Source of the DNA: a phage
Sequence record: PZ151149.1
Strand: one strand, 5' to 3'
DNA length: 64,000 nucleotides
Below, one piece after another: positions 3,885 to 58,257 of the stretch. Both the position numbers and the translations under genes were made by a program. The notes under the pieces are model-generated. The model had not been told where the DNA came from and did not search any database. It worked only from the letters and a program-made list of their open reading frames with translations. The number at the start of each line of letters is the position of its first letter. Position 1 is the first letter of the stretch.

Positions 3885-3969
3885 TAATTTCTCCTGTTTG
3901 GCTTAACTTTCTGATTCCATAATATAGCCCTATCACCAGAAAGTCAAGCATTAATTTAACAAATTTCCA

Positions 3970-14887: not shown

Positions 14888-15478
14888 TTACTTTCTAAAT
14901 GCAGGGTGCATAGCTTTAATACCTTCCACTCGCTGACGATCCGCCGCCTGAATTGCTGGGCGAGGAACGATCAGTTGACCATCACGTTCAATGCTCATTG
15001 TTTTAAATGGAAGAATTGCAGTACACACCAGAGATTCATGCATGTCATCGGTGTATGTTAACTCAAGTTCCCCCAATTGTGAACACCAACAACCATAAAA
15101 GTTAAAGGTGCATACAATGTTACGGCGTTCATTGTCCAGCATGTGAACTTGAACGGCTTCCGGCATTGAATCCTTCCACGCGGTGGAGTTACCGTTATTG
15201 TAGTCTACTATAGAAAGCATCCATGTGTAAAGGTTTAGATAGCTTTCCAAATGCTCATCGACAATAAACCGGACTACCAACGGGTCAAACTCTACATGAC
15301 TGGAAGGATAATCAGCGACCGCCAAACCATATTGACCAGCAACTTGTTTAGTCGGTGGAATGGTTATAGCCGGAAGTGTAACACCTTGACAGTTTAAAGT
15401 AAAGCCTTTTGTTAGTTGACCATCTGGAATGGCAATCTGCCAGTTGCTAGGGTTAGCATAGTTAAAGAGATTGGACAT
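14888..15478 (-). CDS. structural protein at T4 gene 3 position (tail completion/sheath stabiliser-like)
   Basis: 196 aa ORF; positional inference from T4 order 1-3-2-4. Confidence 0.45.
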   Translation of the reverse strand: MSNLFNYANPSNWQIAIPDGQLTKGFTLNCQGVTLPAITIPPTKQVAGQYGLAVADYPSSHVEFDPLVVRFIVDEHLESYLNLYTWMLSIVDYNNGNSTAWKDSMPEAVQVHMLDNERRNIVCTFNFYGCWCSQLGELELTYTDDMHESLVCTAILPFKTMSIERDGQLIVPRPAIQAADRQRVEGIKAMHPAFRK

Positions 15479-15508
15479 TACGATTCCTTAAATGAAAATA
15501 TTTATCAA

Positions 15509-16042
15509 CTAAAAATTTAAACTAGCATAATCTCCAAAATGTTCCTTTGCTGCTTCGTCATAAGCCTTTGCAGCATCAACTTCGTCAAGAAAGACGCCCA
15601 AATGGACCTTTCTACGATTGATTGATATCTGAGCACACCATTTGTTATTCTGTGTTCTAATCACTCCTTTATACTTACTCTTACAACCATCAAGTTTTCC
15701 GCGATTGAATGCATTTTCCTGAGAAGTGGATTCTCTCAAGTTATCCGGTGCATTATTTTCTCGGTTTCTATCTATATGGTCGATCATTTTAACTTGCGTA
15801 CCATGTTCAAGATACCAAACAACCCTATGAACTTTAATGACCAAAGAATAGCCATCACTGCGCCAAAACTTAAAACATAGATAACCTCGACTATTTTTAT
15901 AAACTTTAACCGGGTCTCCTGCCTTATACCATCGACCATTCTTTCCACTATCTTTCAAATGGTACAATATACCATTAACGTGTTTATACTTATCTCTAAT
16001 TTCTTTTTGTGTAAAATCATCCCACATCTTAAACCCAGACAT
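15509..16042 (-). CDS. HNH homing endonuclease with C-terminal AP2 DNA-binding domain
   Basis: IDHIDRNRENNAPDNL (HNH) and YKGV...KWCAQISINRRKVHLGVF...AAKAYDEAA (AP2). Confidence 0.8.
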   Translation of the reverse strand: MSGFKMWDDFTQKEIRDKYKHVNGILYHLKDSGKNGRWYKAGDPVKVYKNSRGYLCFKFWRSDGYSLVIKVHRVVWYLEHGTQVKMIDHIDRNRENNAPDNLRESTSQENAFNRGKLDGCKSKYKGVIRTQNNKWCAQISINRRKVHLGVFLDEVDAAKAYDEAAKEHFGDYASLNF

Positions 16043-16157
16043 ACATTTTCTCCTGATAATATTATTAATAACAACATCAATCTAACATATCTAGTATATA
16101 ATGTCAATTGTCGCTTTGCGACGTGCCGTAGGCACTGACTACTTTTTAACCGAAACA

Positions 16158-16192
16158 AATTTTCTATATTCTAAAGATCTTTCTTCGTTTTG
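16158..16192. repeat. intergenic repeat element, copy A (contains palindrome AAAGATCTTT)
   Basis: 35-nt near-identical match to 53111..53145; shares CGAAACAAATTTT with 52963..52975. Confidence 0.6.
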
Positions 16193-16262
16193 GTTATGTT
16201 TTAACCAATAACTATATTTTTATACAGTAATAAATAAAACTGGTACTATACGAGGACTTCTT

Positions 16263-16517
16263 ATGACAGAAGACATTTTGTTAAAACTCTATGATCGTTT
16301 GGATAACGAATTAGCAACATTGCGGGGTGAAGTTCTCTATTTGTCTAAATGCAATACAGATCTGATTAAGCAGATTGCCGAAAGGGATGACCAAATAAAA
16401 TCCCTTTCAGGCGCATTACGTGATCGCGACAAGGCATTAGAGATTTTACAGCGTGTAACCAATAAAGAAGAGTTGAAAGACTTTCTACATGGTTATGCTC
16501 ACGCCATCGATCTATAA
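16263..16517 (+). CDS. small coiled-coil protein
   Basis: 84 aa helical ORF followed by terminator. Confidence 0.55.
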   Translation: MTEDILLKLYDRLDNELATLRGEVLYLSKCNTDLIKQIAERDDQIKSLSGALRDRDKALEILQRVTNKEELKDFLHGYAHAIDL

Positions 16518-16522
16518 TAAAA

Positions 16523-16541
16523 AGCCCGTCAATGACGGGCT
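16523..16541. terminator. bidirectional intrinsic terminator between convergent genes
   Basis: GCCCGTC-AATGA-CGGGC hairpin flanked by A-run and T-run. Confidence 0.6.
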
Positions 16542-16546
16542 TAATT

Positions 16547-17575
16547 TTAATATGTATCAGCTAATTTAATTATGTTATCAAGTTCCGTGATTGGTAAAGT
16601 TTCTGTGTATCCATCTTTCAACATGGATTTATCAACAACGCCACAATGATAAGTTCTCTTTATTTCCTTTTCAAGTTCCCACGGAATCCAGCCATCAACA
16701 CTTTGTTTGACGTAAACAAGTTTGTGAACAAACTTAGATTTCTGCATATGTTGTTTCATTCTGGTTTCCGGTAATTCATTGGTTACACCAAACTTTATAA
16801 ATTTATCATCTAACGTCTGGATATAAAAATATCCCATCTCAGATGGACGATAGCCAGAAGAACTACATTTCGGACACCCTTTAGCATTTCTGTTGAACGT
16901 ACAATATCTTACAGAAAATTCGGCGTCATGTTTTGTACATTTAAGTTTTATCCATGAATTTGCAGTACCTATCCATTCACCATCGACACCTATATATTCA
17001 TACCCTAACTTTTTACATTTATCTTCTATTCTAGATAGTGCATCTTCCACGGGAACGACATATTCCGTCTTAAATTGTTCAGCCGCACATTTCTTACAAC
17101 CACATGTACCATGATTTTTAAAATCAAAGAACTTTGTATTCTTCCAAATATGGTCATGTTTCTTGCATCTAAGAATCATCTTAGTAATTTGTGATTTCCA
17201 GCCACCAACAAATCCCAAAAATTCATAATCAAGATCTTTACATTTTTCTTCAATGAATTTGGTTGCTTCATCTTCTGTCATAACTCCCCTACATTGAGGG
17301 CAACCAACAATAACCTTTTTAGCATAGAAACTATTACTGGAAACATCATAGACAGTTCCATGCTTATTGCATTGGATAACAGATCTAGTCAATTTTCCTT
17401 TCCATTCTCCAGTAAATCCTAAGAATGTATGGTCGACAAGTTTACATCTTTCAATAACTTTATCTGCAAACTCTCTAGGAGATTTTGTTACCTTGTTTAC
17501 TCTGTATTCTATTTCTTCCGGTTGACGAAGATCATAAACGTGGGGATTTCTCCCCACGGAATTAATATTAAGCAT
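16547..17575 (-). CDS. homing-endonuclease-like protein: three tandem zinc-ribbon modules plus C-terminal T5orf172/GIY-YIG-like domain
   Basis: Three repeats FLGFxGxWKxxxT...C.KH...CxxC; C-terminal GYFYIQT...KFGVT; start at 17575 with AGGAAGG RBS. Confidence 0.6.
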   Translation of the reverse strand: MLNINSVGRNPHVYDLRQPEEIEYRVNKVTKSPREFADKVIERCKLVDHTFLGFTGEWKGKLTRSVIQCNKHGTVYDVSSNSFYAKKVIVGCPQCRGVMTEDEATKFIEEKCKDLDYEFLGFVGGWKSQITKMILRCKKHDHIWKNTKFFDFKNHGTCGCKKCAAEQFKTEYVVPVEDALSRIEDKCKKLGYEYIGVDGEWIGTANSWIKLKCTKHDAEFSVRYCTFNRNAKGCPKCSSSGYRPSEMGYFYIQTLDDKFIKFGVTNELPETRMKQHMQKSKFVHKLVYVKQSVDGWIPWELEKEIKRTYHCGVVDKSMLKDGYTETLPITELDNIIKLADTY

Positions 17576-18390
17576 CTTTCCACACCTTCCTTGCATCATA
17601 GTTTTTACCTTTAGAAACAAATTTATATGTGTTAAGGTAGATAATATTGCTCCAGTCTTTCGGGCTAATCTCAACAAGTTTTGTTTTAATGTGTCCCGGT
17701 AGATATGCTTTGATCATGTGGTCACTACCACGCATACCTTTTACATCACTCCATTTAATCTTCAAGCGTGTTTTATTGCTCAAGGTAGGAGTAGATGCAT
17801 ATTGCTTTAAAAGTGCTTCCAGAAACTGCTGACGGGCTTTAGGCGTTACATAGTGTAAGTTAAGACCCAGCATTACAGTATTACCCGCCTTTGTCTTAGA
17901 ATCACCCAGACAAATGATCAGCGGGAAAACATCCCAATATGGCAAAGTATCTTTATACTTCGCATCATACATAAAGGTATAGATTCGCCCTACTTGCGGT
18001 TTTACAATCTGGTGTCCCTTTATTCCAGCTTTTATTGTTTTAGTAAACCACTCCTGTGATTTTTCTTTAGGACGACTCTTTGATACAGCACGCATAGACG
18101 CACGAAAATCATTAATCATCATCATTGCGCGTTGCTGCTTATTGAGACCCTTTGCACCTTTCCCTTTTAGTTTTTCAACTTCTATTGCTGTTTTAATTTC
18201 GCTGGCATAACGAGACATACTTTTAGTGAAAGTCGCATAGGCTATTCCCTTAGAATCTGCAAATGCTTTAGCTGTCATTCCTTTGGCTTTTGCTTTCGCA
18301 AATTCTACACCCAATTCGACCCACTGTTTAGACTTTCGCTTTTGGGGAGACGGCTTTTCGTCTTCTGTGATTATTTCAAATACGCTCATA
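17568..18390 (-). CDS. protein at T4 gene 2 position (DNA end protector-like)
   Basis: 274 aa from internal Met MSVFEII; length and position match T4 gp2; not verified. Confidence 0.45.
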
Positions 18391-18515
18391 ATATTGTCCT
18401 CTATGTTTATGTTTGTTACACACTTGACAATCCTCTTTGCTATTGCTAAAATGCAGACGAAAATAAACAGCGATACTTGTTGATAAATATCATTATAACA
18501 CAGGAGGAACATTAG

Positions 18516-19538
18516 ATGCAAGATATTAAGAACAAAATTTTGATGCAGTTTCCGAATGCAGATATCAAGTATTTAGAAAAGTATCTAGAAATTTGTGCAA
18601 ACCCAGATAAGGATGGGGAATTAGAGAGGCATCATATTCTACCAAAATCAATTTGGAAGGAATATGAAGACCTTAAAATTCATGATTTTAATGCTGTTCA
18701 CTTGAACACCGTTCGTCATATGATGGCACACTACTATTTCAGTAAAGCAACAAATTCCATTTGGAAGTCTGTTGTTATGATGTTTAATACCAGAATTGAT
18801 ATTATGAAGGAATTGCCAGAAGATATTGTGTTGAAACTTGCTGGTATATCAGAAGAGGCAAAGCGAAAACATGTATACACGGAAGAATCTAGACTGAAAA
18901 TGTCGGAATCACAAAAACGTTTCATGGCTTCTCTTGATGAAGAAGAATTAAAACGTCGCCATAAGAAAAGAACTGATTCCGTTAAAGAACATTTTAGAAA
19001 CTTGAGCGATGAAGAACGAGAAAGAAAGTATAAAGAACGTGGCAAGAAAATATCAAAGGCGTTAAGTAATAGATCAGAGGAAAAACTTAAATTACGAAGA
19101 GAAAGGCTTCTACAAACTATAAACTCAAAGTCAGACGAAGAAAAACAAAGAATCGCCAAACTACTTTCAGATTCACAAAAACCGAAAGAAACATGGGGAA
19201 AATTTGATGAGTTATATGCATTATGGATTGATCTGAATATGCCGGGTCAATATGTATTCAAGCGCGAGGCCATTAAACGTGGATACCCAGATAGGTCATA
19301 TGATTACATCGTTAAAGAAATGAAAAATAAGTACATAAAGGAGAATGGAAACGACATAATAAAATTAAATCCCAGAAAAAATTCTGGTGTCTGGGTATAT
19401 TATGACGAAATATATAAGCTGTGGAAAGAAAATGGTATGCCTAGCGATAGAAAAACAAGAAAAATAGCGGTCGAGAATGGTTATCCCGACCAATGCTATC
19501 AAACTATAGTAAAAGACTTTAAGAACTCACTTATTTAA
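18516..19538 (+). CDS. HNH homing endonuclease with two C-terminal ~45-aa tandem repeats
   Basis: ELERHHILPKS...NAVHLNTVRHMMAH (HNH); repeats WGKFDELYALW...GYPDRSYDYIVKEM and WVYYDEIYKLW...GYPDQCYQTIVKDF. Confidence 0.8.
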   Translation: MQDIKNKILMQFPNADIKYLEKYLEICANPDKDGELERHHILPKSIWKEYEDLKIHDFNAVHLNTVRHMMAHYYFSKATNSIWKSVVMMFNTRIDIMKELPEDIVLKLAGISEEAKRKHVYTEESRLKMSESQKRFMASLDEEELKRRHKKRTDSVKEHFRNLSDEERERKYKERGKKISKALSNRSEEKLKLRRERLLQTINSKSDEEKQRIAKLLSDSQKPKETWGKFDELYALWIDLNMPGQYVFKREAIKRGYPDRSYDYIVKEMKNKYIKENGNDIIKLNPRKNSGVWVYYDEIYKLWKENGMPSDRKTRKIAVENGYPDQCYQTIVKDFKNSLI

Positions 19539-20000
19539 ACCTTTAAAACCGAACACCTTTTTTAATGTGTGTTCGGTTATGATTTTAAATTCCATATTAT
19601 GTTTTTTACACAATGCTACTGCCGCTGCCCACTTTTCGGTATTTTTCGTCCACGTCCAAGCCTCCATCATATAACGCTGCTTTGTTTTAGTCGTTAATCG
19701 CTTTGGCTTTTCTGGTGGTCTAGTCTCTTTGGCTGGCTTAATTTCCCATAAATGCTCTTTTCCATCATCAAACTTAACATAAACATCAACAAAATATCTG
19801 TGACGCTTACCGTCTGTTGATGAATTGTAAGGAATTACAACGGTCTCAGATCCCCATTTAACCACATGAGGATTACGGTCACACCATTTAAAAACATGCA
19901 ATTCCCAGCTTGAACGGTATGTGATTTTCCGTATATCCCCTTTATACTTTTCCTTATTCTCAGGAACATACTTGCCCTTATAAGTGTTAGATCCTCCCAT
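19527..20000 (-). CDS. 4: head completion protein (T4 gene 4-like)
   Basis: 157 aa; recalled similarity (ITYRSSWE...FKWCD...KWxSE) and position before 53-5. Confidence 0.55.
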   Translation of the reverse strand: MGGSNTYKGKYVPENKEKYKGDIRKITYRSSWELHVFKWCDRNPHVVKWGSETVVIPYNSSTDGKRHRYFVDVYVKFDDGKEHLWEIKPAKETRPPEKPKRLTTKTKQRYMMEAWTWTKNTEKWAAAVALCKKHNMEFKIITEHTLKKVFGFKGLNK

Positions 20001-20055
20001 TTTAGCACCCTTTATTATAAATACATAATACTATTTATCAATTGAGGGTGCTAAA

Positions 20056-20610
20056 ATGCTCTTTTCTTTCTTCCCTGCCATTGAATACAACGGCAAGATG
20101 ATTACTGACATTGTGCGCAATTACCGCGCATATTTCAATGCAATAATTTCTGATTATAACATACAAACATATTACATTCAAGGTAGTCCACGACCGGAAC
20201 AGGTTGCATATGAAGTATACGGAAACCAGCAACTTTATTGGATCTTGCTGATGCTTAATGACGTATACGATCCGTTTCATGACTGGATCACCGATCAAGA
20301 GACAGCATACGAATCAGCCGAACAACGATATGCAAACGTAGGAGGAAATCAAGTATTATACCACGTTGATATTGACGGAAACAAGTATTGGAATCTTACC
20401 GAATATCCGAAAGGATCAAGCAATTGGTATGATAAAGGGGATATTCATCATCGTCATTTGCAGTTTCATGGTGCACTGTCGGCGGTAGACACACTGGAAG
20501 ATGCGATCCTCCGCAACGAGGAACGACGCAAGATCAAGATCATAGATCCTACACAAATTAAACAATTTATTAACGCATTCATTCGAGAAATGGAAAAGGC
20601 TGATGTGTAA
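20056..20610 (+). CDS. 53: baseplate wedge subunit (T4 gp53-like)
   Basis: 184 aa; YYIQGSPRPE, QLYWILLMLND motifs; precedes gene 5. Confidence 0.75.
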   Translation: MLFSFFPAIEYNGKMITDIVRNYRAYFNAIISDYNIQTYYIQGSPRPEQVAYEVYGNQQLYWILLMLNDVYDPFHDWITDQETAYESAEQRYANVGGNQVLYHVDIDGNKYWNLTEYPKGSSNWYDKGDIHHRHLQFHGALSAVDTLEDAILRNEERRKIKIIDPTQIKQFINAFIREMEKADV

Positions 20611-20621
20611 GGTGATTAATT

Positions 20622-22421
20622 ATGCTAATGTTTAATAACTCCGTTAAATGGTTTACCGGAATTGTAGAAAACAGGGAAGATCCATTAATGCTGGGGCGCG
20701 TTCAGGTTAGGATTCATGGTATACATCCTTCGCTATCCGCACACGGTGACATTCAAGGTCTCCCAACCGAAGATCTATTATGGATTACGCCAGTACAAGA
20801 CATTACAAGCGCGGCGATCTCCGGTATAGGTCAAAGTCCTACTGGTATTGTTGAAGGTTCAATGGTATTTGGATTGGCTTTAGATGAACGTTATTTAAAC
20901 TGCGTTATTCTGGGTACTATTGCCGGACAATATACAGAGAAACCACTCACTACAGAAGGTTTTTGTGACCCTTCGGGTGCATATCCTCGTTATATTGGTA
21001 ATGATGTTAATATTCTTGCCCGTGGCGGTATTAACCCAGAAACCGGACAAACAACAAAACCTGATAGTGTCTATATTCGAGATGAAAACACTGGAGTTGC
21101 AGTAAATCCAGACGACGAGCCATTAGATCAAATTCCGGTTGATGATAATCCTGATTTTACAATAGAAAAAATGCTTCGTGGCGATGAGGGATATCGTGAG
21201 AAATGGTATCTTGATTCAGAAGGATATCCGACAATAGGCATCGGGCATTTGATCATTTATAAGAAAACCAGTGATCTGGGTATTATCAATAATGAACTTT
21301 CTAAGCTGGTAGGGCGTGAAGTTACAAACGGAAGACTTACCGCCGAAGAAGTTAGTAAAGTATTTGCCGACGATATAGAAAAGACCCGTCGTGATATGCG
21401 CAAACATCCACGAATTGCACCTGTCTATAATAAATGTAATGCTTCTCGTCGTATGGCATTAGAAAATATGGCGTTTCAAATGGGCGTTGGTGGATTGGGT
21501 AAATTTAAGAATAGCCTTGCTGCAATGCTAGCAGAAGAATGGAAACAAGCCTATGATGGATTACGTCAATCGGTATGGGCTAACCAAACTCCAGGACGCG
21601 CCAACCGTGTTTCTAAAATTATTCTTACTGGTAACTTAGAATCATATGGCGTAATTGCTCCTAAGAAAGAGGAATCAATTTCTGATGATCCGAGAGCACG
21701 TTTGAGAAAAACCCGTATTGCTGCATATAAGACGCAGAGAGCAGAAGAAGACCCAGAAGCACCGTTTACCCCACAAGATACACGAATCATGTTTAAAGAG
21801 CCTAAGAGTTCGTATTCTGCAAGGTATCCATATAACCATGTGTACGAGTCAGAGAGCGGTCATATTATCGAGATTGATGATACTCCTTCTCATGAGCGAT
21901 ATCATCGTAAACATCCTTCTGGTACATTTGAAGAAACCAGACCGGACGGAACGAGGGTAGAAAAGATTGAAGGTGATGATTATCTGATCGTTAAACAAGG
22001 CCGGAAAGTAAACGTTAAGGGTAATTTGCAAGTTGTTGTTGAAGGTGACGCGCAAGTTTATTATATGGGTAATGTGATGCAAACCGTTGATGGTAACGTC
22101 ACGGAATTTATTCGTGGTAATGTTAATCAGACCGTTGAGGGTACAGCTAATATGCATGTTGTAGGTGATGTTACCGCTCAGCTTGACGCTAATTTAACGG
22201 CTAATGTCAAGGGTAATGCTGAATTAATGATCGAGGGTAACACTACCGAAACAATTAAAGGTAACTATGATTTAACCGTTGAGGGTAATTTTAATATGAC
22301 CGTCAATGGCACTAAATCAGATCAGGTTAATGGTGACTGGTCCCGTAATTGTGGTGCAAGCGTTAAAGATATTGCATCGGGTACAGTTAAAATTGATGGT
22401 AGCCGTATTGATCTTGGGTGA
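20622..22421 (+). CDS. 5: baseplate hub subunit and tail lysozyme (gp5)
   Basis: N-terminal WFTGIVE...GRVQVRIHGIHP, lysozyme domain YLDSEGYPTIGIGH, C-terminal VxGxxxxx beta-helix repeats. Confidence 0.92.
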   Translation: MLMFNNSVKWFTGIVENREDPLMLGRVQVRIHGIHPSLSAHGDIQGLPTEDLLWITPVQDITSAAISGIGQSPTGIVEGSMVFGLALDERYLNCVILGTIAGQYTEKPLTTEGFCDPSGAYPRYIGNDVNILARGGINPETGQTTKPDSVYIRDENTGVAVNPDDEPLDQIPVDDNPDFTIEKMLRGDEGYREKWYLDSEGYPTIGIGHLIIYKKTSDLGIINNELSKLVGREVTNGRLTAEEVSKVFADDIEKTRRDMRKHPRIAPVYNKCNASRRMALENMAFQMGVGGLGKFKNSLAAMLAEEWKQAYDGLRQSVWANQTPGRANRVSKIILTGNLESYGVIAPKKEESISDDPRARLRKTRIAAYKTQRAEEDPEAPFTPQDTRIMFKEPKSSYSARYPYNHVYESESGHIIEIDDTPSHERYHRKHPSGTFEETRPDGTRVEKIEGDDYLIVKQGRKVNVKGNLQVVVEGDAQVYYMGNVMQTVDGNVTEFIRGNVNQTVEGTANMHVVGDVTAQLDANLTANVKGNAELMIEGNTTETIKGNYDLTVEGNFNMTVNGTKSDQVNGDWSRNCGASVKDIASGTVKIDGSRIDLG

Positions 22422-22429
22422 GGTAATTG

Positions 22430-22996
22430 ATGGTTGAAATTCTTCCTATGAGTTCAAAATTGGAGGATATCAGCGAGCGAGAAATCTTTGAGGTGGTGTT
22501 CTCTTATAAAGCAACGCCACCGGATGCAAATACCACATACACGATTAAAGAGTTTAAGATCAGCGAGTATCGCCCTAATAAGGGCGTTACCGTTGAAGAA
22601 ACTAAAATATCTGGTGAGTATCGGGATAGTTTTTCGCTTGGCGCGGATTCTCTTAAATATATAACGAAAGATAGAATTAAAAAATCTGCCGGAAGTTTTG
22701 ACGATTTACCAGATCCAACTACAGCAGATCTATATTATTTTAACGCTCCTACACGTCTACAGGAGGTTTATACTTATAAAGTAACCCTAACCTATATCCA
22801 ATCTGTTTCAGAGTCTTCTGGCGGTTCTGGTGAAGGAAATAGTGGTGGTTCCAATAGCCGAGAGGGTGCTGGTGAAACTAATACTCCTCCGGTAGTAACC
22901 GAGCACACAATAGAGAAAGTTTATACTCAAACCGTTTTTGGAAATTGGGATGTGTGGGCGCAACAACTAAGAGATTATGTACATAGGGGTGTTTAA
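22430..22996 (+). CDS. 5.1: gp5.1-like protein
   Basis: Positional; ATG at 22430 preferred over TTG at 22427. Confidence 0.55.
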
Positions 22997-23289
22997 TGGC
23001 TGGATTATCCTACGATAAAGCTAAAACTACAGGGCATGGTAATTACGGTCCTACGGTAATTAATGCAACTCAATCTAAGGTATTTGTTGAGGGTATCCCT
23101 GTATTAGTCGAAGGAGACCCAATTACACCACACACAAAAACAACAAAGCCTTATGATACACACGGGGGAACTACGGTCGCCAGTACCCCGAAAGTATTTG
23201 TTACCGGAAAGAAAGCAATTCAAATGGCAGATCGTATTAGCTGTGGCGATACCGTCGCTATGGCATCACCGAAGGTATTCATAAAATGA
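22996..23289 (+). CDS. 5.4: PAAR-repeat spike tip protein (gp5.4)
   Basis: 97 aa, PAAR-like repeats ([20 protein letters not shown]). Confidence 0.8.
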
Positions 23290-55958: not shown

Positions 55959-56684
55959 TTACTTGAGTGTGTGGAATTGGCTATGTTTAGTCTCTCGCAC
56001 CTTGACAGACCCATCGCGTTTGATATAATAGATCAGTGACTTGAGGGTGTCGTGTACATACGCGTGCGGGAAACGCTCTGGATACTTCTTCCAATCTGGA
56101 GTATTAACGATCCAGTCGAAGATCCACCACGGGCAGGAGTAGTAACCACGACCGCCACCGATCAAGCAAATGGTCGGACGGAAGCCAGTAAGATCGCAAA
56201 ATGAATCAGTGTCATGTGCGGGGGGACGATGTTCTGCTTCGTCAGAGAAAATGTTTGCTACCGGAGATTCCACTTTAACTTCCGGTGCTTCTTCAACATC
56301 TGACTTAACTTCTTCAACCACTGGTTCAACTGTTGGAGATTCTTCTTTTGTTTCTTCAATGACGATCTCAGGTTCTTTCATTGCTTCAACCAGAGACGGG
56401 TCAACTTCGTCGAATACCACTTTATCATCTGCGGTGTCTGTTGCCAGAATAAGATCGTTAATACTGGTTCCTTCTGCCGGAGTTTCTTCTTCCATTTCGG
56501 AAGCCAGTTTAGTTAATTCGGTTTCTACGAACTCGATCATGTTCTCTAGTGATAAAGTCTTTTTGACCTTAATATCAAATTGTTTTGCGTAGTCCGCTAA
56601 TTCTGTTTTAGCTGTTTTCTGTGCTTCTTTGTCGTCGGACGCCGCAATAGCGCGGAGTTCTTCGAAATATTCTTTATCAAACAT
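55959..56684 (-). CDS. protein at T4 inh position (acidic middle, conserved-looking C-terminal domain)
   Basis: 241 aa between hoc and uvsW; positional assignment only. Confidence 0.4.
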   Translation of the reverse strand: MFDKEYFEELRAIAASDDKEAQKTAKTELADYAKQFDIKVKKTLSLENMIEFVETELTKLASEMEEETPAEGTSINDLILATDTADDKVVFDEVDPSLVEAMKEPEIVIEETKEESPTVEPVVEEVKSDVEEAPEVKVESPVANIFSDEAEHRPPAHDTDSFCDLTGFRPTICLIGGGRGYYSCPWWIFDWIVNTPDWKKYPERFPHAYVHDTLKSLIYYIKRDGSVKVRETKHSQFHTLK

Positions 56685-56710
56685 GTTATTCTCCTGATTG
56701 GGGGTGTTTG

Positions 56711-56718
56711 TATAAATA
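56711..56718 (+). promoter_or_regulatory. T4-type late promoter (TATAAATA)
   Basis: TATAAATA 36 nt upstream of uvsW ATG at 56755. Confidence 0.5.
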
Positions 56719-56754
56719 TTTGTATACTGTATTTATTGAGTGAGGCTATTCGCT

Positions 56755-58257
56755 ATGCAAGATATTAAAATTCACTTTCTGAACTATTCCCATGTTCAAA
56801 TTGAATGTAGCGATTCAATTTTATTAGAAATGCGAGATTATTTTAGTTTTGAAGTCGAGGGAGCAAGATTTCAAAAACGAGTAAAATACGGCGGCTGGGA
56901 TGGGCGTATTCGTCTTTTAGACTACAACGGAAAGTTGCCAATCGGCCTAACTAAAACCGTTGGCATCTTCGCTAAAAATATGGGTTATTCTGTATGGGTA
57001 GATCCTCGCTTATTCGAAAAAGAACAGGTTACAGAAGAAGAGATCACAAAATGGTGTAACGACTTGGAATTATATTCCGGTGCTAACAGGATCACCCCGC
57101 ACTGGTATCAATCAAAGGCTGTCTTTGAAGGTATTCATCATAAACGCCGTATGTTAGTTTTGCCTACGTCCGCTGGTAAATCTGCAATTGCTTGTATGTT
57201 GTCTCGCTGGTACTTAGAGAACTACGAAGGGAAAGTGCTGATCATCGTTCCTACCACGTCGCTAGTGCTGCAAATGCGTGATGATTTTGTTGATTATCGC
57301 CAGTTTCCGTATGAAGCAATTCATACTATCATGAGCGGTACTAGTAAACACGTAGGTGATCGCCTGATCGTTGTTAGTACGTGGCAATCAGCATGTAAAC
57401 AGCCGAGTGAATGGTTCCAGCAATTTGGGATGGTTATTGTTGATGAATGTCACAAGGCCACTGCTAAAAACCTGCTAAACATCGTTACTGATATGGATCA
57501 TTGCCAGTTTAAGATCGGTATGACTGGTTCCCCTCGTGACGGGAAAGCTAACATGATGCAGTATGTCGGTCTTTTCGGTGATATTTCTAAGATCGTGAGT
57601 ATTGACCGCCTGATGGAAGAAGGTCAAGTGACGAAACTGAAAATCAACTGTCTTTTCCTTCGTTATACCGATGAGGAATGTAGCTCGGTTAAGGGTAAAG
57701 AATATGCGGAAGAGATCAAGTATATTACGTCTAACCCACGACGTAATAAGTTTGCTTGTAATTTGGCGCTAAAACTCGCTAAGAAGGGCGAAAACGTATT
57801 CCTGATGTTCCGCAATACTAAGCACGGAAAACTTATGTATGACGCGTTACAGAAGGTACACGACAAGGTTTATTATATTGACGGTGGAGTTAAGACAGAA
57901 GAACGTGATGAATTTAAGAAATTAGCGGAAGGGGAAACAGGGATCATTTGCGTTGCATCCTATGGTGTGTTCTCTACTGGTGTTTCAATTAAGAATTTGC
58001 ACCATGTTATTTTCGGTCATCCAGTGAAGGAATCAACTATCGTTCGTCAGAGTATCGGTCGTGCATTGCGTAAACATGGTTCTAAGGATATTGCAACGGT
58101 CTGGGATCTTATCGATCATTTGGCGGTTAAGACAAAGAGCAAGAATGCTAAGAAACAGTTTAGCCACCTTAATTATGCTCTTAAACATGCCCTTGAAAGA
58201 ATAAAAATTTACAACACAGATCGATTCGAATATGTCACGAAAACAATCGAGATTTAA
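56755..58257 (+). CDS. uvsW: UvsW RNA-DNA and DNA-DNA helicase
   Basis: SF2 helicase motifs (LPTSAGKS, VDECH, TGSP), about 500 aa; ATG 56755 preferred over GTG 56740. Confidence 0.92.
   Translation: MQDIKIHFLNYSHVQIECSDSILLEMRDYFSFEVEGARFQKRVKYGGWDGRIRLLDYNGKLPIGLTKTVGIFAKNMGYSVWVDPRLFEKEQVTEEEITKWCNDLELYSGANRITPHWYQSKAVFEGIHHKRRMLVLPTSAGKSAIACMLSRWYLENYEGKVLIIVPTTSLVLQMRDDFVDYRQFPYEAIHTIMSGTSKHVGDRLIVVSTWQSACKQPSEWFQQFGMVIVDECHKATAKNLLNIVTDMDHCQFKIGMTGSPRDGKANMMQYVGLFGDISKIVSIDRLMEEGQVTKLKINCLFLRYTDEECSSVKGKEYAEEIKYITSNPRRNKFACNLALKLAKKGENVFLMFRNTKHGKLMYDALQKVHDKVYYIDGGVKTEERDEFKKLAEGETGIICVASYGVFSTGVSIKNLHHVIFGHPVKESTIVRQSIGRALRKHGSKDIATVWDLIDHLAVKTKSKNAKKQFSHLNYALKHALERIKIYNTDRFEYVTKTIEI

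What the first reader, a model, noticed from the sequence alone, without database searches (positions are those of the whole stretch)
18516..19538. HNH endonuclease with duplicated C-terminal DNA-binding-like repeats, inserted between gene 2 and gene 4 homologues on the opposite strand
An HNH motif (RHHILPKS...NAVHLNTVRHMMAH) is followed by a basic linker and two 45-aa repeats (WxxxDEIYxLW...GYPDxxYxxIVKxxK). The gene runs against its neighbours and its 3' end overlaps the gene 4 homologue convergently by 12 nt, as expected for a freestanding homing endonuclease.
Basis: partly seen in the sequence, partly recalled or inferred. Interest (0 to 1): 0.45.

Follow-up and report, generated by a model that had tools for sequence, protein, structure and literature searches.

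The report
MobD-like HNH homing endonuclease cassette
This is a selfish, free-standing HNH homing-endonuclease gene wedged between two essential structural genes of an RB49-like (Krischvirus) coliphage; it travels with a foreign piece of the neighbouring head-completion gene, and it is an ordinary, already annotated kind of phage mobile element.

Summary
ORF 18516..19538 (+, 340 aa) lies between gene 2 (17568..18389, -) and gene 4 (19527..20000, -) and overlaps gene 4 by 12 nt. It has an HNH motif, a basic helical middle and two C-terminal repeats (41% identical, E 2e-13).

The window is a Krischvirus. Only 3 of 60 related phage records carry the insert. In the rest, genes 4 and 2 are 11 nt apart.

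The insert is 1126 bp (18401..19526) and brings its own sigma70-like promoter and ribosome-binding site. The adjoining 375 nt of gene 4 (19527..19901) is a foreign allele, about 75% identical to the HEG-free alleles, and is always linked to the ORF.

The cassette is nearly identical (0.3% divergence) across phages whose flanks differ by about 2%. Carrier phages are interspersed among non-carriers.

The HNH residues H39, H40, N59, H68 and H72 are invariant across 41 relatives. The architecture matches T4 MobD, which has one copy of the C-terminal module. The module has no Pfam model. It occurs in one to three copies in HNH proteins and in proteins that look GIY-YIG-like.

Verdict: a recently mobile MobD-like homing endonuclease gene, already annotated in phage Ec_Makalu_002. 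It is a new member of a known kind and of low to moderate interest. Cleavage has not been tested.

The parts
18401..19526 (.). Inserted DNA (1126 bp) that is absent from HEG-free krischviruses. In those phages the gene 4 stop codon and the gene 2 ATG are 11 nt apart. The left junction is ambiguous by the 4-nt microhomology CTAT.
   Evidence: Junction alignments with RB49, Phi1, Makalu_001 and FL37. BLAST segment boundaries at 18404/19540. Annotations.
18424..18452 (+). Sigma70-type promoter-like site, TTGACA-17-TAAAAT with TG before the -10. It lies 64 nt upstream of the ORF and inside the insert.
   Evidence: Consensus scan, 11/12 matches. One of only 7 such strong matches in the 64-kb window. 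Conserved in 13 of 14 copies. Function is inferred, not shown.
18502..18507 (+). Shine-Dalgarno sequence AGGAGG, 8 nt before the ATG.
   Evidence: Read directly from the sequence. Annotated as a ribosome-binding site in Makalu_002.
18516..19538 (+). Homing endonuclease ORF, 340 aa. Order of parts: HNH, one NUMOD3-like unit, charged helices, two three-helix modules.
18621..18752 (+). Beta-beta-alpha-metal (HNH) core, residues 36-79. H39 and H40 sit on strand 1, N59 before strand 2, and H68 and H72 on the helix.
   Evidence: These residues are invariant in 41 relatives. AF2 model: E36-40, E60-64, H65-79 with pLDDT about 97. The aligned GG-type relative P0067 reaches the Pfam HNH cut-off.
18873..18917 (+). 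Single recognisable NUMOD3-like unit (VYTEESRLKMSESQK, residues 120-134).
   Evidence: Custom HMM built from 64 NUMOD3-like units of relatives: 13.6 bits. Relatives have Pfam NUMOD3 at this position.
18918..19181 (+). Lys/Arg/Glu-rich helical region, residues 135-222, pI 10.1. It occupies the position that relatives fill with NUMOD3 repeats.
19194..19319 (+). C-terminal module copy 1 (residues 227-268), a three-helix unit.
   Evidence: Module HMM 5.3e-17. BLASTP repeat-against-repeat 2e-13. AF2 pLDDT about 94.
19392..19520 (+). C-terminal module copy 2 (residues 293-335), a three-helix unit.
   Evidence: Module HMM 8.6e-23. AF2 pLDDT 94-98.
19527..19901 (-). Foreign-allele part of gene 4 (codons 34-157 plus the stop). 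It is about 75% identical in DNA to HEG-free alleles and always linked to the ORF. It is read here as a co-conversion tract and a possible cleavage-resistant allele.
   Evidence: 92-96 mismatches in 375 nt, against 0-3 in 19902..20000. 21 amino-acid and 50 synonymous codon differences. No closer allele in the phage collection or in the 5.8-billion-protein set. Linkage 10/10.
19527..20000 (-). Gene 4 (head completion protein), chimeric.
   Evidence: phrog_218 1.2e-60.
17568..18389 (-). Gene 2 (DNA end protector). It is now separated from gene 4 by the insert. Its own ribosome-binding site (GAGGA) is retained at 18395-18399.
   Evidence: phrog_429 2.7e-71. Junction alignment.

Best explanation
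The ORF is a free-standing homing endonuclease gene (HEG) of the T4 MobD type. It has an N-terminal HNH (beta-beta-alpha-metal) nuclease, then a NUMOD3-like helical region, then two copies of a 43-aa three-helix module.

Proposed mechanism (inferred):
1. It is expressed from its own sigma70-like promoter.
2. In a mixed infection it binds a long asymmetric site in HEG-free krischvirus DNA, at or near the gene 4/gene 2 junction. The site most likely lies in the 3' part of gene 4.
3. It nicks or cuts there.
4. Recombinational repair from the HEG-carrying genome copies in the 1126-bp insert together with the donor's diverged 3' 375 nt of gene 4 (co-conversion).
5. The carrier is protected because its junction is disrupted and its gene 4 allele differs at about one base in four.

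Shown here: presence/absence polymorphism, exact junctions, the linked foreign gene 4 tract, near-identity of the cassette across diverged backgrounds, intact and conserved catalytic residues, and a domain architecture shared with T4 MobD.

Inferred only: enzymatic activity, the position of the target site, whether it nicks or makes a double-strand cut, timing of expression, and that the modules bind DNA.
For: - Presence/absence: 3 of 60 Krischvirus records carry the insert. The others have genes 4 and 2 11 nt apart.
- Cassette versus flanks: the cassette 18405-19901 diverges 0.3% on average among 14 carriers, against 2.2% for gene 2.
- Carriers are interspersed among non-carriers. Makalu_002(+) differs from Makalu_001(-) at 4/690 nt in gene 2 and 0/555 nt in gp53. 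It differs from other carriers at 11-18 of 690 (gene 2) and 8-14 of 555 (gp53).
- A foreign gene 4 tract ends sharply at 19901. It is linked to the ORF in 10/10 contigs.
- H39, H40, N59, H68 and H72 are invariant in 41 relatives. AF2 places them on a beta-beta-alpha unit, pLDDT about 97.
- PHROG 655 'homing endonuclease' 6e-15.
- Eleven copies chosen through gp4 identity are all intact, with 11 synonymous and 8 mostly conservative nonsynonymous variable codons.
- T4 MobD shares the order HNH, NUMOD3-like, module (module HMM 51.4 bits).
- Co-conversion and cleavage sites distant from the insertion site are established for T4 free-standing HEGs (PMC2988022).
Against: - No Pfam HNH model hits the protein even at E<=1.
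- No cleavage data exist for this protein. T4 MobD itself is listed as 'activity not determined, target unknown'.
- The donor lineage of the foreign gene 4 allele was not found. The co-conversion history is therefore inferred from one recombination boundary shared by all copies. That pattern also fits a single ancestral acquisition followed by ordinary recombination of the flanks.
- The left junction shows no co-converted tract.
Confidence: 0.8

Rival explanations
1. The cassette entered the krischvirus lineage once, by homing or by illegitimate or short-homology recombination. The endonuclease is no longer active in mobility. Its patchy distribution then reflects ordinary homologous recombination among co-infecting krischviruses plus drift.
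For: - All carriers share exactly the same junctions and the same right-hand boundary at 19901. One origin is therefore enough.
- The phages recombine heavily anyway: flank similarities are mosaic.
- The promoter or ribosome-binding site is mutated in two copies.
- Only 5% of isolates carry it.
Against: - All 25 copies examined are intact 340-codon ORFs, with no change at the catalytic residues and an excess of synonymous change.
- Cassette diversity is about 7-fold lower than flank diversity. This is expected for recent spread, not for an old passive polymorphism.
Confidence: 0.12
2. The insertion was made by recombination at the promoter-early stem-loop (PeSL) cassettes that shuffle ORFs between RB49-like phages. 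The gene is then a passenger ORF rather than the agent of its own movement.
For: - The insert carries a strong sigma70-like early-type promoter at its left end.
- PeSL-mediated shuffling explains many RB49/phi1 differences (PMC2839356).
Against: - No G/C-rich stem-loop accompanies the promoter.
- The HEG-free junction is an 11-nt spacer with no PeSL to recombine with.
- The site lies between core late genes, not in a hyperplastic region.
- The linked diverged gene 4 tract is the signature of double-strand-break repair with co-conversion, not of PeSL exchange.
Confidence: 0.04
3. The protein is a domesticated DNA-binding regulator or a competition or defence factor. Its HNH-like domain would be non-catalytic or used for something other than homing. 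One example would be early cleavage of competing phage DNA or host DNA, or antisense control of genes 4 and 2.
For: - No Pfam HNH hit.
- An early-type promoter and antisense orientation are unlike T4 HEGs, which use middle or late promoters.
- Its transcript would be antisense to gene 4.
Against: - The His/Asn/His set is strictly conserved.
- The gene is dispensable: 57 of 60 relatives lack it.
- It is linked to a co-converted flank. That is what homing predicts and regulation does not.
Confidence: 0.04

Closest known systems
T4 MobD (NP_049710), a free-standing HNH homing endonuclease of T-even phages
   Same: Same order of parts: N-terminal HNH with the HHI(L/I)P...N...H...AH pattern, then NUMOD3-like S-x-E-x-K-x-K-I-S units, then the C-terminal W-x2-YD-LY-LW...GYP..Y..(I/M)V.F module (module HMM 51.4 bits; BLASTP 4e-08 to copy 1). 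Both are free-standing genes in the intergenic space of a T4-type phage.
   Different: - MobD has the short 'GG..D.DN' loop between the two strands. The window protein has a longer loop (SIWKEYEDLKIHDFN) and escapes the Pfam HNH models.
- MobD has one module, this protein has two.
- MobD has several NUMOD3-like units, this protein has one plus a long charged helix.
- Outside the module the two are too diverged for BLASTP.
- MobD is co-oriented with its neighbours and has no early promoter.
- MobD's activity and target are undetermined.
T4 MobE, MobA and I-HmuI (HNH homing endonucleases that nick one strand)
   Same: An HNH nuclease fused to an extended DNA-binding region. MobA and MobE are free-standing. 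They show preferential inheritance and co-conversion of the neighbouring essential gene (PMC2988022). From general knowledge, not tested here: I-HmuI combines HNH, NUMOD3-type helices and a C-terminal helix-turn-helix.
   Different: - No detectable sequence or fold match of this protein to I-HmuI or any PDB entry.
- The insertion site (4/2 junction) and the target differ.
- Whether this enzyme nicks or cuts both strands is unknown.
T4 SegF, SegG and SegE 'intronless homing' with marker exclusion
   Same: A free-standing HEG next to an essential gene. The neighbouring gene segment of the donor replaces that of the recipient. The carrier's allele is diverged, which is presumed to protect it. Proteins that look GIY-YIG-like by motif (phrog_314 'homing endonuclease') use the same C-terminal module in 1-3 copies.
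   Different: Different nuclease fold (GIY-YIG against HNH). Those cases are shown experimentally, this one is not.
T4 segD (antisense free-standing HEG between late genes 23 and 24)
   Same: The only T4 HEG oriented against its late structural neighbours.
   Different: segD is GIY-YIG and has no promoter of its own. This ORF has a near-consensus sigma70-type promoter and a strong ribosome-binding site.

Membership tests
HNH / His-Me finger nucleases | Beta-beta-alpha-metal fold | tested here: met
   The AF2 model (mean pLDDT 89.6; residues 1-110 at about 97) gives E36-40, E60-64 and H65-79. This is a prediction, not a solved structure.
HNH / His-Me finger nucleases | Catalytic His on strand 1, structural Asn, and metal-binding His/Asn on the helix | tested here: met
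   H39, H40, N59, H68 and H72 are invariant in a 41-sequence alignment. They are unchanged in 25 natural copies.
HNH / His-Me finger nucleases | Match to a curated HNH profile (Pfam PF01844 or relatives) | tested here: not met
   No Pfam hit at E<=1 for the window protein. The link is indirect only. P0067 is a member of the same alignment with the GG-type loop, and it scores 21.7 bits against PF01844 (cut-off 21.4).
HNH / His-Me finger nucleases | Metal-dependent DNA cleavage | not testable with these tools
   Needs a biochemical assay.
Free-standing homing endonuclease genes (intronless homing) | Presence/absence polymorphism at a fixed site among close relatives | tested here: met
   3 of 60 records carry it at identical junctions. 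The others have an 11-nt spacer.
Free-standing homing endonuclease genes (intronless homing) | Not inside an intron or intein; an independent ORF with its own translation signals | tested here: met
   Intergenic position, own AGGAGG and ATG, own promoter-like site.
Free-standing homing endonuclease genes (intronless homing) | Co-conversion of flanking markers, and an element more conserved than its flanks | tested here: met
   A foreign 375-nt gene 4 tract is linked to the ORF. Cassette divergence is 0.3% against 2.2% for the flank. Carriers are interspersed among non-carriers.
Free-standing homing endonuclease genes (intronless homing) | Site-specific cleavage of the HEG-free allele and super-Mendelian inheritance | not testable with these tools
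   Needs a cleavage assay and phage crosses.
T4 MobD-like architecture | Order of parts: HNH, NUMOD3-type units, C-terminal W-YDELY-LW...GYPD module | tested here: met
   Module HMM on T4 MobD: 51.4 bits at residues 204-246. NUMOD3-like unit at residues 120-134. Relatives have Pfam NUMOD3.
T4 MobD-like architecture | Full-length sequence homology to MobD | tested here: inconclusive
   BLASTP aligns only the modules (4e-08 and 5e-04). tblastn gives about 25% identity over residues 18-277 to 'MobD-like' genes (1e-6). The HNH loop type differs.
NUMOD3 (PF07460) | Match to the Pfam NUMOD3 profile | tested here: not met
   No hit in the window protein. There is only one unit by a custom HMM. Homologues P0003, P0004, P0013 and P0067 do pass.

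The most novel reading that the evidence does not exclude
The 43-aa three-helix module (W-x2-YDELY-x-LW...F-x-x-I-A...GYPD-x-x-Y-x-x-MVK-x-F) may be an undescribed, portable DNA-recognition unit of Straboviridae homing endonucleases. It has no Pfam model. It is strung in one to three copies behind at least three different nuclease heads: two HNH loop types and a head that looks GIY-YIG-like by motif. Copy number and order would set target length and specificity. In that reading, duplication (as here) is a route by which MobD-type enzymes acquire new targets such as the gene 4/2 junction. Early, antisense expression from its own sigma70-type promoter would let this enzyme attack co-infecting genomes before replication.
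Probability: 0.35. Interest if true: 0.4.

Novelty: new member of a known kind. Interest (0 to 1): 0.25.

Why it matters
The value is mostly as a clean natural example. A free-standing HEG has carried a diverged allele of an essential virion gene (79% of gp4, 21 amino-acid changes) into several krischvirus backgrounds. This illustrates how nuclease genes mark boundaries of genetic exchange in phages being developed for therapy.

The practical by-product is a defined, so far unmodelled DNA-binding module shared by Mob-type and Seg-like enzymes. T4 MobD has it, and MobD's target is still unknown. That could help predict or engineer HEG specificity. None of this overturns current understanding.

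Tried and rejected
- Pfam and NCBIfam scans of the protein gave no meaningful hit.
- phmmer and profile searches against PDB sequences gave only a chance coiled-coil hit and weak centrin/EF-hand-like matches to the module region (E 0.0017). I treat these as helix-loop-helix pattern resemblance.
- Foldseek of the full model against PDB gave nothing below E = 5.9.
- The search for the donor of the foreign gene 4 allele failed. Nothing is closer than about 80% DNA identity in the phage collection. The nearest other gp4 protein clusters are the RB49 type (86%) and an HEG-free metagenomic lineage (80%, P0155) whose 4/2 junction is also 11 nt.
- The context of the nearest HEG homologue, P0002, was uninformative because the contig is only 1.4 kb.
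- No exact TATAAATA late promoter was found on the - strand in 15000-23000. A TGTTATAAT extended -10 on the - strand at about 18490-18498 could feed gene 2. This is untested and was not counted as evidence.
- The first mafft alignment misplaced the gap. It was replaced by anchored comparisons.
- The 12:4 synonymous to nonsynonymous count is biased, because ten loci were retrieved by exact protein identity. It was replaced by the gp4-anchored sample.

Full report
**What is in the sequence.** The ORF list confirms a 340-codon ATG ORF at 18516..19538 on the + strand. An AGGAGG sits 8 nt before the ATG.

The flanking genes are on the - strand. Gene 2 is the DNA end protector (phrog_429, 2.7e-71), and its real ATG gives 17568..18389. 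Gene 4 is the head completion protein (phrog_218, 1.2e-60) at 19527..20000. Beyond them, gp53 and gp5 are on the + strand.

The ORF's last 12 nt overlap the 3' end of gene 4 convergently. The protein contains ERHHILPKS...FNAVHLNTVRHMMAH. It has two C-terminal repeats that align without gaps, 20/49 identical, E 2e-13.

**Where the window comes from, and the empty site.** Megablast places the region in Krischvirus (RB49-like T4-type coliphages). The best match is phage Cognac at 98.7%.

Of 60 matching records, only Cognac, Ec_Makalu_002 and vB_EcoM_PHB13 cover the ORF. The other 57 match in two pieces that skip it. In RB49, Phi1, Makalu_001 and FL37, the stop of gene 4 and the ATG of gene 2 are 11 nt apart.

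Anchored comparison puts the insert at 18401..19526, which is 1126 bp. There is a 4-nt CTAT ambiguity at the left edge. Gene 2's own ribosome-binding site is retained.

The Makalu_002 record already annotates the identical protein as 'putative homing endonuclease, HNH family'. Its paper notes that the gene is absent from Makalu_001 and Phi1 (PMC11611945).

**The mobile unit is larger than the ORF.** Gene 4 of the carriers differs from HEG-free alleles at 92-96 of the 375 nt between 19527 and 19901. From 19902 to 20000 it differs at only 0-3 of 99 nt.

At the protein level this means 21 substitutions and 50 synonymous codon changes, all from codon 34 onward. Several variant residues (ELH, PHVV, WAAAV, LCKK, EHTLKK) are shared with a more distant gp4 lineage. 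The tract therefore looks like a natural allele from an unsampled relative, not a hypermutated copy.

No closer allele exists in the phage collection or among 5.8 billion clustered proteins. Every contig shown that encodes this chimeric gp4 also carries the 340-aa ORF, 10 of 10.

Gene 2, on the left, shows no carrier-specific markers.

**Signs of recent horizontal spread.** Among 14 carriers (4 isolates and 10 metagenomic contigs), the cassette 18405-19901 diverges by 0.3% on average. Gene 2 diverges by 2.2%.

Flank similarities do not group the carriers together. Makalu_002(+) is nearly identical to Makalu_001(-): 4/690 nt in gene 2 and 0/555 nt in gp53. It differs from the other carriers at 11-18 and 8-14 positions in the same two segments. 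Cognac(+) sits with RB49, Phi1 and FL37, which are all non-carriers.

In a sample retrieved through gp4 identity rather than ORF identity, all 11 copies are intact. They have 11 synonymous and 8 mostly conservative nonsynonymous variable codons. None of these falls at the catalytic positions.

**What the protein is.** Pfam and NCBIfam give nothing. PHROG 655 'homing endonuclease' matches over residues 7-337 at 6e-15, and phrog_12434 'HNH endonuclease' at 4e-6.

The family is rare. An exhaustive HMMER scan found 261 representatives at E<=1e-3 among 1.84 billion. In a 41-sequence alignment, the invariant columns are Y23, H39, H40, L42, P43, N59, H68 and H72.

AlphaFold (mean pLDDT 89.6) places these residues on a strand-strand-helix unit: E36-40, E60-64, H65-79. 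A member of the same alignment that has the conventional GG loop (P0067) reaches the Pfam HNH cut-off and has strong NUMOD3.

I conclude that the N-terminal domain is an HNH variant whose inter-strand loop is lengthened. That lengthening probably explains why the curated profiles miss it.

Relatives from Vibrio genomes carry canonical NUMOD3 repeats in the middle. The window protein keeps one recognisable unit at residues 120-134. This is followed by 88 residues of charged helices with pI 10.1.

**The C-terminal repeats.** A custom HMM finds the 43-aa module at residues 227-268 and 293-335. Among the 150 best relatives it occurs in one, two or three tandem copies. It appears behind this HNH type, behind the GG-loop HNH type, and behind a different nuclease head. 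It also appears alone in a 121-aa protein.

The third head matches phrog_314 'homing endonuclease'. It looks GIY-YIG-like by motif only.

tblastn finds the module in 228 phage records whose listed organism names are T4-type phages of enterobacteria and Aeromonas. It lies under features named segE, mobE or homing endonuclease. T4 MobD has one copy at residues 204-246 (51.4 bits), after a GG-type HNH and NUMOD3-like units. No Pfam model covers the module.

The module is therefore plausibly a DNA-binding, helix-turn-helix-like unit, but that is an inference. The duplication is real but not unique, since P0007, P0036 and P0056 also have two copies.

**Expression signals.** Inside the insert, 64 nt upstream of the ATG, is TTGACA-17-TAAAAT with a TG extension. 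It is one of only seven such near-consensus sites in the 64 kb. Four of the others look like the phage's early promoters.

In T4, free-standing HEGs use middle or late promoters. All but segD are co-oriented with their neighbours (PMC2988022). The antisense orientation and early-type promoter here are therefore a variation, not 'as expected'.

No G/C stem-loop of the PeSL type accompanies the promoter. How gene 2 is transcribed across the insert is unresolved.

**Mechanism proposed.** By analogy with the documented behaviour of T4 Seg and Mob enzymes, the protein would recognise a long site in HEG-free DNA at or near the 4/2 junction. It would nick or cut there. Repair from the carrier genome would copy in the insert and the adjoining gene 4 segment.

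The strict linkage and sharp boundary of the foreign gene 4 tract suggest that the target lies within that tract, and that the diverged allele confers resistance. These steps are inferred. No tool here can test cleavage.

**Rivals considered.**
- A single ancient acquisition that is now passively recombined. This fits the single shared boundary. It fits less well with the low cassette diversity and the intact, constrained ORFs.
- PeSL-mediated insertion. There is no PeSL at the empty site.
- Domestication as a regulator. The gene is dispensable in 95% of relatives, and the catalytic set is conserved.

**Comparison and verdict.** The element works like, and is architecturally a relative of, T4 MobD. 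It is a free-standing HNH homing endonuclease with intronless-homing signatures.

It differs from MobD in four ways: the HNH loop type, two DNA-binding modules instead of one, a reduced NUMOD3 region, and antisense placement with its own early-type promoter between two late structural genes.

It is already annotated in public records. I file it as a new member of a known kind, with low to moderate interest. The chimeric gp4 allele and the unmodelled, shuffled module are the only points that go beyond routine annotation.

Noticed in passing
window 15509-16105: A 595-bp insertion that is absent from all seven comparator krischviruses. It carries ORF 15509..16042 (-, 177 aa) with Pfam HNH_3 (6.8e-14) and AP2 (8e-4). 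This is a second, unrelated free-standing HNH homing endonuclease about 2.4 kb from the finding.
   Followed up: partly
window 16547-17677 (-), and gene 2 3' end 17571-17637: A 376-aa ORF with three CapR-type zinc-finger stretches (Pfam 1.8e-14) that matches phrog_681 'endonuclease' (4.6e-80). By eye it has a T5orf172/GIY-YIG-like C-terminus. It overlaps the 3' end of gene 2. It is present in Phi1 (ORF130.1), Cognac and FL37, and absent in RB49, Makalu_001, Makalu_002 and PHB13. About 20 substitutions in the last 70 nt of gene 2 track its presence or absence, which suggests a second co-conversion tract. Gene 2 is thus bracketed by two nuclease genes, a 'HEG island' in the sense of PMC10448857.
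   Followed up: partly
L001 (Makalu_002) 3937-3960 and L009, equivalent to window 18425 and 18497-18511: The Makalu_002 copy has four substitutions within about 15 nt around the ribosome-binding site (AGGAGG to AGGAGT). One metagenomic copy (L009) has the -35 changed from TTGACA to TCGACA. These may be mutations that lower HEG expression.
   Followed up: no
window 18489-18498, - strand: TGTTATAAT, an extended -10-like element inside the insert that points toward gene 2. It might compensate for the separation of gene 2 from the gene 4 transcript. No exact TATAAATA late promoter was found on the - strand in 15000-23000.
   Followed up: no
window 19527-20000 (-): The gp4 head completion protein matches the Pfam TnsA-like endonuclease N-terminal domain (PF08722, 5.2e-21). 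A virion completion protein with a restriction-endonuclease-like fold sits directly beside the HEG.
   Followed up: no
P0003-P0006 (Vibrio parahaemolyticus and V. vulnificus genome contigs): The closest named homologues (33% identity; same HNH type, canonical NUMOD3, one module) are encoded in large Vibrio genome contigs of up to 815 kb, with two paralogues on one 152-kb contig. This suggests prophage or chromosomal copies of this otherwise lytic-phage family.
   Followed up: no
L022 (T4 56429-57208): T4 MobD carries one copy of the same C-terminal module and NUMOD3-like units. Its activity and target are listed as undetermined in the 2010 review. The module definition made here could help locate MobD's target.
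   Followed up: partly
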